A stretch of 64,000 nt of DNA from the human T2T-CHM13v2.0 reference genome, Homo sapiens. Below, piece by piece: positions 6,596-8,968 of this stretch. Where the stretch lies: assembly GCF_009914755.1 (NCBI RefSeq), contig NC_060928.1. One strand, written 5' to 3'. How positions within the stretch are numbered: position 1 is the first letter of the stretch; the number at the start of each line of letters is the position of its first letter. The position numbers and the translations under genes are program-made. Below the pieces are notes generated by a model that worked only from the letters and a program-made list of their open reading frames with translations, was not told where the DNA came from and did not search any database.

Positions 6596-6859
6596 GAAAA
6601 CCACAGGGAAATAAGACTTTGAGTTTGGAGAAGAATAAGAGAGCATTATAAAGTGATAAAACCTAAACATGGTTCATTAGGAAAAAGTGACTGAAATTCT
6701 AATCCTGTGCAGGTCCAGGATTATGAGGGAAGCAAAAAGAATGCCACTGACACTAGAATAGAGTATTTCCTGCTGGGCATGGTGGCTAATGCCTGTAATC
6801 CCAGCACTTTGGGAGGTGGAGGCAGTGGATCGCTTGAACCCAGGAGTTCGAGATCAGCC
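6596..6859 (+). repeat. Inverted duplication 1, left copy (unique ~176 bp plus Alu 5' end)
   Basis: Reverse complement of 8707-8968; by-eye alignment of the unique part shows 6 substitutions and one 2-bp indel. Confidence 0.95.
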
Positions 6860-7041
6860 TGGCCAACATGGTGAAACCCCATCTTTACTAAAAATACAAA
6901 AATTAGCCAGGGGTGGTGGCTCACGCCTGTAATCCCAGCTGCTGGGGAGGCTGAAGCATGAGAATTGCTGGAACCCAGGGGGCAGAGGTTGCAGTGAGCT
7001 GAGATGGCACCACTGCACTCCAGCCTGGGCGACAGAGACTG
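6772..7041 (+). mobile_element. Alu, probably chimeric (J-like 5' end, S-like remainder)
   Basis: Shares GGAGGCAGTGGATC and GAGATCAGCC variants with the Alu at 8468-8794; no TSD visible. Confidence 0.85.
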
Positions 7042-8467
7042 TCTCAAAAAAAAAAAAAAAATTTATGTGCTGTCACAACTGCAAGGCATGAGGCCTCTCT
7101 CCCTCCCTGGCGTTTCCACATGGCACTTCCCCTTGTGTTTGACGTGTCAGCCTCTGTCCTCATTGCAAATCTCCTCTGCCTTCCAGCCTCAGTCTCTGTA
7201 CAGACTCTGCCCTCCTCATCTTGGCTGCAGGGTTGTCAGGTTCTTTGGCCTTCTCATCTCACAGCCACAGGAGCGTTTGTGAACTTGTGATCCTCCCTAG
7301 TTCCCGGCTCTGGCAGTGGGTGCGGGGAGGCCTCAACACAGCCAGCCCCTTGGTTACTCTACTGTGACTACCTCCTTTTGGCTCCGGGCTCGGTGACCTA
7401 CTTCCAAATACCAAATTGCAGCATGGGACTTTTCTGATTTTCATTTGCCCCCTCAAATCTATGAGGTTTCTATGATCTCTTTCATCTCTTCTCTTTCTCG
7501 TGAGTTACAAGGGAGTAGGGGCGTACCGGGTGCCTCAGAAGGAACCCAAGTAGCAATTTCACCATAGTCTCATCCCTCCAAATTTCTCCTAAAAAATATT
7601 CCCTCAATCCAGGATTTTTACTACTTCCCTCTGTGGAGAGAAACCCCATGTCTAACATCTGTCTCACCCAAGAGCATGCTGGAAAATTCTTTGGCTTCAA
7701 AGTCCAAAGATTGATTCTGGATATTGAATGTCCAGCTAAGGGAAACCAAGAAAAGACTTTTCTGTTTTCTCCTTCAGGTACCTGGTCCTTGAAATTGAAA
7801 CCTAGACACTTATGCCTATTGTTTTTCTTGTAACTTTCAAAATCTATTTTGATGTCAAAATGGAACAATGGTTTTTTTGTTATCCATCGAGTTCTGCCCT
7901 TCTCAAGAAGTATGGATGGCTCAACCTCAGCAGATGGAAAGCTACAGGGAAATAGGAAGTACCATCTCAAGGAAAAGAAATGTGCCTCATTAGAAATGTC
8001 CGATGCATTTTTTGTTCTCAGTCGTTCTTGCAACCCAAGGACTGAGTTGCAAGTCAAAGTGTTTATCAATGTTAAGTTTGAACCAAAGACAAAAATCTCT
8101 GTTGTTCTTTCCTTCTTAGTAGTTCTTAAACTACTTATATATTAGAACGCTGCTGTGGAGGAAGAAATATTTTTAGTTTTTCATACGGAAAAGTTTTAAG
8201 ACACACATTTCCATGGAGTATATTTTTCCCACAGTGTTTTCCAAAGCCTCTGTCTTTGGCTCAGCATTTCTCCAACTGGAAGTTTCACCAATGAGTCCCC
8301 TGTGTTCCTGTGGTCCGCTGTAGGGCTACTCTGGAGTCTCTGGCTTATTAGCATGTAAAACTCGGAGATTCTTTCCCTCCAGTTAAAGTCATATCCACAG
8401 GATTTACATGAAATATATTATATACGGCACCTTTCTTTGTAAGGTAGCTAGAAAGTGGCTTTGGGAA

Positions 8468-8794
8468 TTTTTTTTCTGAGACGAGTCTCTCTCCGTCACC
8501 CAGGCTGGAGTGCCATGGTGCAGTCTCAGCTCACTACAACCTCCGCCTCCCGGGCTCAAGCGATTCTCCTGCCTCAGCCTCCTGAGTAGTGGGGACTACA
8601 CGCACACACCACCACGCCCAGCTATTTTTGTTGTTGTTGTTTGTTTGTTTTTTTTTTTTTTGTAGTTGTTTGTTTTGGTAGAGACGGGGTTTCACCATGT
8701 TTCCGCGGCTGATCTCAAACTCCTGGGCTCAAGTGATCCACTGCCTCCGCCTCCCAAAGTGCTGGGATTACAGGCGTGAGCCACCGTGCCCGGC
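8468..8794 (-). mobile_element. Alu (AluJb-like) with expanded middle A-rich linker
   Basis: Reverse-strand dimer with GGGCTCAAG motifs. Confidence 0.93.
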
Positions 8795-8968
8795 AGGAAA
8801 TATTCTATTCTAGTGTCAGTGGCATTCTTTTTGCTTCCCTCATAATCCTGGACCTGCACAGGATTAGAATTTCAGTCATTCTTTCCTAATGAACCATGTT
8901 TAAGTTTTATCACTTTGTAATACTCTCTTATTCTTCTCCAAACTCAGTCTTATTTCCCTGTGGTTTTC
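8707..8968 (-). repeat. Inverted duplication 1, right copy (probable donor)
   Basis: Reverse complement of 6596-6859. Confidence 0.95.

What the first reader, a model, noticed from the sequence alone, without database searches (positions are those of the whole stretch)
6596..8968. Inverted duplication 1: Alu-anchored copy that built a chimeric Alu and a long stem
Seen: 6596-6771 is ~96% identical to the reverse complement of 8795-8968. Homology continues into the first ~88 bp of both Alus, which share non-consensus variants (GGAGGCAGTGGATC, GAGATCAGCC); beyond ~6859/8707 the left Alu looks S-type and the right J-type, and the left Alu has no TSD. Inference: a strand switched between two inverted Alus, copied the right Alu's 5' end plus flank, and replaced the left Alu's original 5' end. 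The resulting ~450-bp inverted arms around a 1.4-kb spacer could mediate a recurrent micro-inversion or form dsRNA.
Basis: partly seen in the sequence, partly recalled or inferred. Interest (0 to 1): 0.7.

Follow-up and report, generated by a model that had tools for sequence, protein, structure and literature searches.

The report
Old inverted copy-paste scar in PALLD
A 264-base stretch in an intron of the human PALLD gene has a backwards copy 2 kb away, likely pasted there millions of years ago when a DNA-copying strand slipped between two Alu repeats; this is a known kind of mutation, and the only unusual point is that two more such scars lie within 50 kb.

Summary
6596-6771 matches the reverse complement of 8795-8968 at 168/176, the flank has two copies in the genome, and a 35-base Alu motif with the shared variants occurs only at these two places in 3.1 Gb. 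Shared rare alleles stop at Alu column 84; beyond it the two Alus differ like unrelated copies, so one is a chimera, most likely the left. Corrections: the right Alu is a J/S mosaic, not J-type; neither Alu has a TSD above chance; only 264 bp are near-identical (longest perfect run 75 bp), so recurrent inversion is unlikely. Best reading: a short inverted duplication (1000 Genomes 'inv-dup' class: <1 kb, within 5 kb), started by Alu-Alu homology and ended without long homology, roughly 10-30 My old. Whether the spacer was inverted too cannot be told without orthologs. New in passing: two more inverted copies (31070/34778; 50072/54271) lie in the window, both pasted into a left-hand host repeat from a donor 3-4 kb to the right, against none in 240 kb of flank. 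One multi-switch event or a local hotspot is possible, but the background rate is unmeasured. A ~420-bp intronic RNA stem is predicted, untested.

The parts
6596..6771 (+). Left copy of the 176-bp non-repeat flank (likely the pasted copy)
   Evidence: 168/176 to reverse complement of 8795-8968; two copies in genome
6772..6859 (+). 5' 88 bp of the left Alu, same origin as the right Alu's 5' end; J-type marks
   Evidence: 5 shared rare alleles in columns 0-84; shared 35-mer only here and at 8709-8743 genome-wide
6854..6863 (+). Inferred Alu-Alu switch interval (last shared rare allele to first S-type mark)
   Evidence: could lie further 3' if the cluster at 8702-8706 arose later
6860..7060 (+). 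3' part and A tail of the left Alu, S-type, unrelated to the right Alu's 3' part
   Evidence: log2 J/S score -25.7; 16/123 non-CpG differences from right Alu, rank 1544 of 3570 pairs; no shared rare allele
7061..8467 (.). 1.4-kb unique spacer; orientation relative to the ancestor unknown
   Evidence: no significant second match in 264 kb held; skew test had no power
8468..8706 (-). 3' part of the right Alu, J/S mosaic with an expanded A/C-rich middle
   Evidence: 3 J, 7 S, 2 neither of 12 diagnostic columns; score -3.9
8707..8794 (-). 5' 88 bp of the right Alu (likely donor)
8795..8968 (-). Right copy of the flank (likely donor)
6552..6569 (+). Weak pyrimidine-rich similarity to reverse complement of 8975-8993, out of register with the main alignment by 20 bases; may have guided the return or be chance
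   Evidence: 15 of 19 columns; p 0.02-0.03 against 3000 random 60-mers each way
31070..31174 (+). Second inverted copy, pasted into the middle of an old J-type Alu (30925-31290) that lost 24 columns; donor 34673-34778
34673..34778 (-). Donor of the second inverted copy
50072..50852 (+). Third inverted copy (about 450 bp, later split by an Alu), pasted into a multi-copy repeat (L1 3' end by recall) that lost about 89 bp
53476..54271 (-). Donor of the third inverted copy (later split by an Alu); its LTR-like part (MaLR type by recall) runs on intact past the copied stretch

Best explanation
The 264 bases at 6596-6859 are an inverted copy of 8707-8968, likely made when a DNA strand being synthesised leftward through the left Alu switched to the oppositely oriented right Alu, copied its 5' end and 176 bases of flank, and rejoined without long homology, which would have replaced the left Alu's own 5' end and TSD and left the spacer unflipped. 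Shown: the copy, its privacy in the genome, the chimeric boundary. Inferred: left is the recipient (about 85%), no inversion, a replication or break-repair switch (fold-back on the nascent strand, switch to the other parental strand, and homology-started repair finished by end joining all give this same product and cannot be told apart), and an age of about 10-30 My (non-CpG divergence 8/250 = 3.2%, 95% interval 1.4-6.2%; calibration of about 3% human-orangutan and 6.5% human-macaque is recalled). It is probably a neutral intronic scar; in PALLD pre-mRNA the arms are predicted to pair into a stem of about 420 bp.
For: (private two-copy homology running across the Alu's 5' edge). (5 shared rare alleles up to column 84, none after; J-type 5' marks on a pure S-type 3' part in the left Alu, seen in 0 of 6 other Alus with CC at columns 69-70). 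(in exact matches genome-wide the J-type 5' motif goes with G at column 93 in 3170 and C in 407; right has G, left has C). (the right Alu's G at column 203 is found in 2628 of 88,577 S-type right arms, fitting an intermediate element). (the 2 of 2 neighbouring events that have a host repeat show insertion on the left, a small deletion and no inversion). (Sudmant 2015: 54% of 229 characterised inversion sites were inverted duplications, nearly all <1 kb within 5 kb).
Against: No TSD marks the right Alu as intact (a 10-base match 62 bases past its end, reached by 1 of 80 unrelated flanks, lacks an A-rich linker). The right Alu's own 3' part is unlike the 6 other CC-type elements (score -3.9 vs +25 to +53), and its column-93 G lies in a cluster of 4 private differences. 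Nothing in the sequence tells which outer junction is new. All 6 CpG sites still intact in one arm are decayed in the other, improbable at 3.3% divergence (p about 0.01; 0.10 at the upper bound), so the event may be older or the flank partly homogenised.
Confidence: 0.65

Rival explanations
1. Same two switches but with inversion: the flank was native on the left, the strand switched at the Alu onto the opposite strand, copied back through the spacer, the J/S Alu and the flank (2.1 kb), and rejoined at 8968/8969. The product is an inverted duplication plus inversion plus deletion; the left Alu is still the chimera.
For: Gives exactly the present sequence (inference). INVDUP-INV-DEL is the first-listed common structure among large complex variants, 174 CSVs (passages of 10.1101/2024.12.19.629504). 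Inverted Alu pairs have caused human-chimp inversions with chimeric elements.
Against: The two neighbouring events show no inversion; the small inv-dup class is the commonest at this size. Strand-skew test had no power.
Confidence: 0.17
2. The shared 5' end was native to the S-type 3' part, and the right Alu is the chimera (copy made left to right, or with inversion).
For: The right Alu has 4 differences in 5 bases exactly at the boundary (8702-8706), as a junction scar might; 407 of 3577 exact matches of the J-type 5' motif do carry the S-type C at column 93; neither Alu has a TSD.
Against: Column 93 favours the right about 8 to 1; 0 of 6 local CC-type Alus have an S-type 3' part, and the right carries 3 J marks, the left none of weight.
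Confidence: 0.12
3. An older duplication of flank plus whole Alu, with later conversion that either homogenised the outer 264 bp or replaced one 3' part from another Alu.
For: CpG decay looks older than the flank divergence; there is a 75-bp perfect run.
Against: No shared rare allele in 181 columns of the 3' parts and unrelated-pair divergence; the 75-bp run is within chance (p 0.15); needs two events.
Confidence: 0.05
4. Assembly artefact or chance similarity of a dispersed repeat.
For: None found.
Against: 16 of 264 columns differ, with CpG-type decay; two copies only.
Confidence: 0.01

Closest known systems
'Inverted Dup' (inv-dup) and 'Ins with Dup and Del' classes of 1000 Genomes phase 3 (Sudmant et al. 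2015, PMC4617611; section 9 and passages read)
   Same: Duplicated stretch <1 kb, inverted, within 5 kb of its template, with loss of sequence at the insertion site; replication error proposed.
   Different: Those are polymorphic and recent; this one is 3% diverged and probably fixed (untested). One junction here lies in Alu-Alu homology.
Alu-Alu-mediated rearrangement with chimeric Alu / Alu recombination-mediated inversion (Lee et al. 2008, PMC2603318; passages)
   Same: Two inverted Alus, a chimeric element, TSDs that no longer match.
   Different: A simple Alu-Alu inversion makes two reciprocal chimeras and duplicates nothing; here the 5' end and 176 bp of flank are present twice and one 5' end is lost.
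INVDUP-INV-DEL complex variant (10.1101/2024.12.19.629504; passages)
   Same: Inverted duplication by template switching with a deletion.
   Different: Requires an inverted middle segment, which is not shown here; described for large variants.
Short-range template switching (Walker et al. 2021, PMC7954356; search listing and start of abstract only) and ODIRA (PMC10766183; passages)
   Same: Polymerase switch to a nearby opposite-strand template making an inverted copy.
   Different: ODIRA arms lie within about 100 bp (40-80 bp preferred); here the jump is about 1.85 kb, longer than an Okazaki gap.
Recurrent (toggling) inversions (10.1101/2021.12.20.472354; passages)
   Same: Inverted repeats flanking a spacer.
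   Different: 23 of 32 recurrent inversions have flanking repeats >=10 kb; these arms are 264 bp at 94%.

Membership tests
inv-dup (Sudmant 2015) | Duplicated stretch under 1 kb in inverted orientation | tested here: met
   264 bp, 248/264
inv-dup (Sudmant 2015) | Copy within 5 kb of the template | tested here: met
   1847 bases between 6859 and 8707
inv-dup (Sudmant 2015) | Only a local second copy, not a dispersed repeat or retrocopy | tested here: met
   2 matches genome-wide for flank and for the Alu 35-mer; no A tail on the flank copy
inv-dup (Sudmant 2015) | Sequence between the copies keeps its ancestral orientation | tested here: inconclusive
   Skew test without power, no old repeat across the junctions; met for the two neighbouring events
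inv-dup (Sudmant 2015) | An allele or ortholog without the copy exists | not testable with these tools
   No primate or population assemblies held (no relatives)
Alu-Alu-mediated rearrangement | Junction inside aligned Alu sequence giving a full-length chimera | tested here: met
   Shared rare alleles end at column 84; subfamily marks change by column 93
Alu-Alu-mediated rearrangement | Chimera lacks matching TSDs while the intact partner keeps them | tested here: inconclusive
   Neither Alu has a TSD above chance
Simple Alu-Alu inversion | Two reciprocal chimeras, no duplicated sequence | tested here: not met
   Both Alus carry the same 5' end and flank
Recurrent NAHR inversion | Long, near-identical flanking inverted repeats | tested here: not met
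   264 bp, longest perfect run 75 bp against mostly >=10 kb
Recurrent NAHR inversion | Both orientations segregate on several haplotypes | not testable with these tools
   No population data; supplement look-ups found nothing but were incomplete
Inverted-Alu dsRNA (ADAR substrate) | Arms in one transcript predicted to pair | tested here: met
   MFE of 5850-9500 sense pairs 171+85+166 bases between the arms; intronic in PALLD per the supplied annotation
Inverted-Alu dsRNA (ADAR substrate) | A-to-I editing observed | not testable with these tools
   No RNA data

The most novel reading that the evidence does not exclude
The three inverted copies within 48 kb of this PALLD intron, all with the donor 2-4 kb to the right and the recipient on the left, are the fossil of one replication fork (or one break-induced replication tract) that folded back three times about 30 My ago, or of a locus where forks of one direction keep doing so. 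Their divergences (3.2, 4.9, 7.6%) are compatible with a single age (p 0.19), which also fits the Alu order (after one S-type Alu, before two others). That would be a dated, ancient germline multi-switch event and would make fork polarity of inv-dup formation testable from fixed scars genome-wide.
Probability: 0.25. Interest if true: 0.55.

Novelty: new member of a known kind. Interest (0 to 1): 0.3.

Why it matters
Alone it is an ordinary, probably neutral scar of a described mutation class, with a cleanly readable Alu-started junction. It adds a non-Alu arm to an intronic RNA stem, where editing sites could be mapped uniquely. The wider value lies in the cluster: if fixed inv-dups cluster and share polarity, they record where and in which direction germline forks switch templates, a question that the polymorphic call sets left as 'a common mechanism' without naming it.

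Tried and rejected
TSD as a marker of the intact Alu: relaxed and strict scoring against 80 other Alus gave no canonical TSD for either. Orphan TSD of the left Alu within 1-12000: no convincing match. Old repeat crossing either outer junction: none at E<0.1 in 264 kb, none genome-wide. Template for the 26 bases before the left junction: best match 18 of 26, chance level. Hairpin at the left junction: folds no better than shuffles (z 0.74). Strand skew for spacer orientation: background mean about 0, test right in 50% of 152 windows, no power. Strand-biased damage in the copied arms: all 4 CpG decays in the left arm of the main pair are TG, but the third pair is balanced 2/2/2/2, so not pursued. 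Structured RNA family: 0 Rfam matches in 5700-10400. Recurrent inversion and simple Alu-Alu inversion rejected as above. Link of PALLD to fragile sites: 1 listed paper with 1 mention, not read. A genome-wide background rate for such scars could not be measured: only 240 kb of flank was held. Papers sought for template distances and inverted-repeat counts were not held, so nothing is taken from them.

Full report
Observation. The window's self-comparison puts the pair among its strongest non-tandem matches. Aligned in detail, 6596-6771 and the reverse complement of 8795-8968 agree at 168 of 176 columns; the match continues through 88 bases of both Alus (80 of 88, six of eight differences at CpG) and breaks at 6860/8706. 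Searches of the whole T2T genome find the flank twice only (the tool warns that it skips very common words). A 35-base degenerate motif holding the shared Alu variants matches two places in 3.1 Gb, these two. The feature is real and not a dispersed repeat.

Chimera test. I collected 88 near-full Alus from the window and 200 kb upstream and classed the 86 others by their own marks (18 J-like, 55 S-like, 13 left unclassed; the names J and S for these marks are recalled, no Dfam library was on hand). The two focal Alus share five alleles that are rare among the others in columns 0-84 and none in columns 89-269; their 3' parts differ at 16 of 123 non-CpG columns, mid-range among 3570 pairs. Whole-unit duplication is therefore rejected and one Alu is a chimera with a switch at about 6854-6863.

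Which one. Past the switch the left Alu is S-type at 9 of 12 diagnostic columns (score -25.7); the right has 3 J, 7 S and 2 other (score -3.9), a mosaic rather than a J. The shared 5' end carries J marks. None of 6 other local Alus with the same CC mark has an S-type 3' part, though none looks like the right Alu either. Genome-wide, the J-type 5' motif is followed by G at column 93 in 3170 exact matches and by C in 407; the right has G, the left C. The right's G at column 203 is seen in 2628 of 88,577 otherwise S-type arms. Together I put the left as chimera at about 85%. TSDs do not help: with a strict test, 11 of 80 and 19 of 80 unrelated flanks score as well as the left and right Alus' own, whereas the other Alus' own median is twice as high.

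Mechanism. Two histories give today's sequence with the left as chimera. (A) A strand made leftward through the left Alu pairs with the right Alu, copies 264 bases and rejoins, deleting the old 5' end and TSD. (D) The flank was native on the left, and the switch copied 2.1 kb backwards, inverting the spacer. No old repeat crosses either outer junction, and base skew has no power. An 18-base pyrimidine-rich similarity just outside the junction (p 0.02-0.03) may have guided the return but is symmetric between A and D. I favour A because the two neighbouring events that can be read show it and because it is the commonest form at this size: Sudmant et al. 2015 found 54% of 229 characterised inversion sites to be inverted duplications, nearly all under 1 kb and within 5 kb (PMC4617611, section 9 read). 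D matches the INVDUP-INV-DEL structure (10.1101/2024.12.19.629504, passages). Fold-back, inter-strand switch and homology-started repair closed by end joining cannot be separated from the product (inference). The jump is far longer than the 40-80 bp of ODIRA (PMC10766183, passages).

Age. Non-CpG divergence of the arms is 8 of 250 (3.2%; 1.4-6.2%), about 10-30 My by recalled primate distances, and later than the left S-type Alu. All six CpG sites intact in one arm are decayed in the other, p about 0.01 at the point estimate and 0.10 at the upper bound using decay measured on 55 local Alus, which points to the older end.

Consequences. The near-identical part is 264 bp with a longest perfect run of 75 bp. 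Recurrent inversions go with long flanking repeats (23 of 32 with >=10 kb; 10.1101/2021.12.20.472354, passages), and 9 of 132 NAHR-type inversions there were Alu-flanked, so a rare flip is possible but recurrence is unlikely. For RNA, the predicted fold of 5850-9500 pairs 422 bases between the arms in preference to the two neighbouring Alus; the duplex (-747 kcal/mol) exceeds the best of 53 inverted Alu pairs under 3 kb apart in the held DNA (-597). This is a prediction for naked RNA; no Rfam family matches and no editing data were available.

The cluster. After masking Alus, the only non-tandem self matches of >=60 bp and >=85% within 30 kb in 264 kb are three inverted pairs, all in the window (16 matches at all distances, 10 of them within 30 kb: 6 tandem and 4 segments of these three pairs); 40 kb downstream adds no inverted pair, one direct pair at 86%. 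The second (31070-31174, donor 34673-34778) sits inside an Alu whose halves stay colinear with 24 columns lost and a visible TSD; the third (50072-50852, donor 53476-54271) sits inside a multi-copy repeat that stays colinear with about 89 bases lost, and each of its arms was later split by an Alu with its own TSD. Their non-repeat parts are two-copy in the genome. So both are insertions on the left from donors on the right without inversion. Divergences of 8/250, 21/428 and 8/105 do not reject one age (p 0.19). Against over-reading: the same polarity in three events has p 0.25 by chance and is only inferred for the main pair; given the first event, two more falling in 64 of 304 kb has p about 0.04; the window was chosen because of such features; and the genome-wide rate is unmeasured. 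A rough figure from the 1000 Genomes counts (with a recalled SNP total) is about 0.4 per Mb, at which a triple would be expected in about 0.1 of the genome's 64-kb windows; at ten times that rate about 90 windows would have one.

Literature on this locus. A full-text search for PALLD with inversion polymorphism and inverted repeats found 0 papers. PALLD is absent from the main text of the inversion preprint (its supplements were not seen). It was not found in the one held supplementary file of PMC4617611 (with approximate hg19 positions recalled) or the two readable files of PMC12350169, one cut when stored; the supplement of PMC12058530 was unreadable. Inversion tables that I could not see may list the site. 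PMC2603318 and PMC5414712 were seen as passages; other papers only as search listings.

Verdict. A real, old, short inverted duplication with an Alu-Alu junction: a new member of a known kind, interest 0.3. The most novel reading left open, one ancient multi-switch event or a polar hotspot, has probability about 0.25.

Noticed in passing
window 31070-31174 and 34673-34778: Inverted copy (91.5%) pasted into the middle of an old Alu (30925-31290), 24 Alu columns lost; donor 3.5 kb to the right; two copies in the genome.
   Followed up: yes
window 50072-50852 and 53476-54271: Inverted copy of about 450 bp (about 94%) pasted into an L1-like 3' end with about 89 bp lost; each arm later received its own Alu with TSD, so the event predates those insertions.
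   Followed up: yes
window 8468-8706: The right Alu is a J/S mosaic unlike any of the 86 other local Alus (3' score between the two classes) and has an expanded A/C-rich middle; it may be an intermediate subfamily or an older chimera.
   Followed up: partly
window 6772-6859 / 8707-8794 and the third pair: No CpG is kept in both arms in either pair (0 kept in both, 6 and 8 kept in one); more discordance than the non-CpG divergence predicts for the main pair.
   Followed up: partly
window 40049-40856: Tandem array of about 800 bp with 93-97% self-matches at offsets near multiples of 24 and 72 bases.
   Followed up: no
window 10892-11004 / 11159-11267 and 34440-34591: Imperfect palindromes (82% and 65%), probably small DNA-transposon relics (recalled; not tested).
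   Followed up: no
L028, window coordinates 66233-66402 and 67820-67981: Direct pair of 170 bp at 86%, 1.4 kb apart, just downstream of the window.
   Followed up: no
window 33025-33318 and 36401-36693: Two same-strand Alus at 90.5% identity, the closest Alu pair in the window's self-comparison, sharing several variants; young subfamily or conversion.
   Followed up: no
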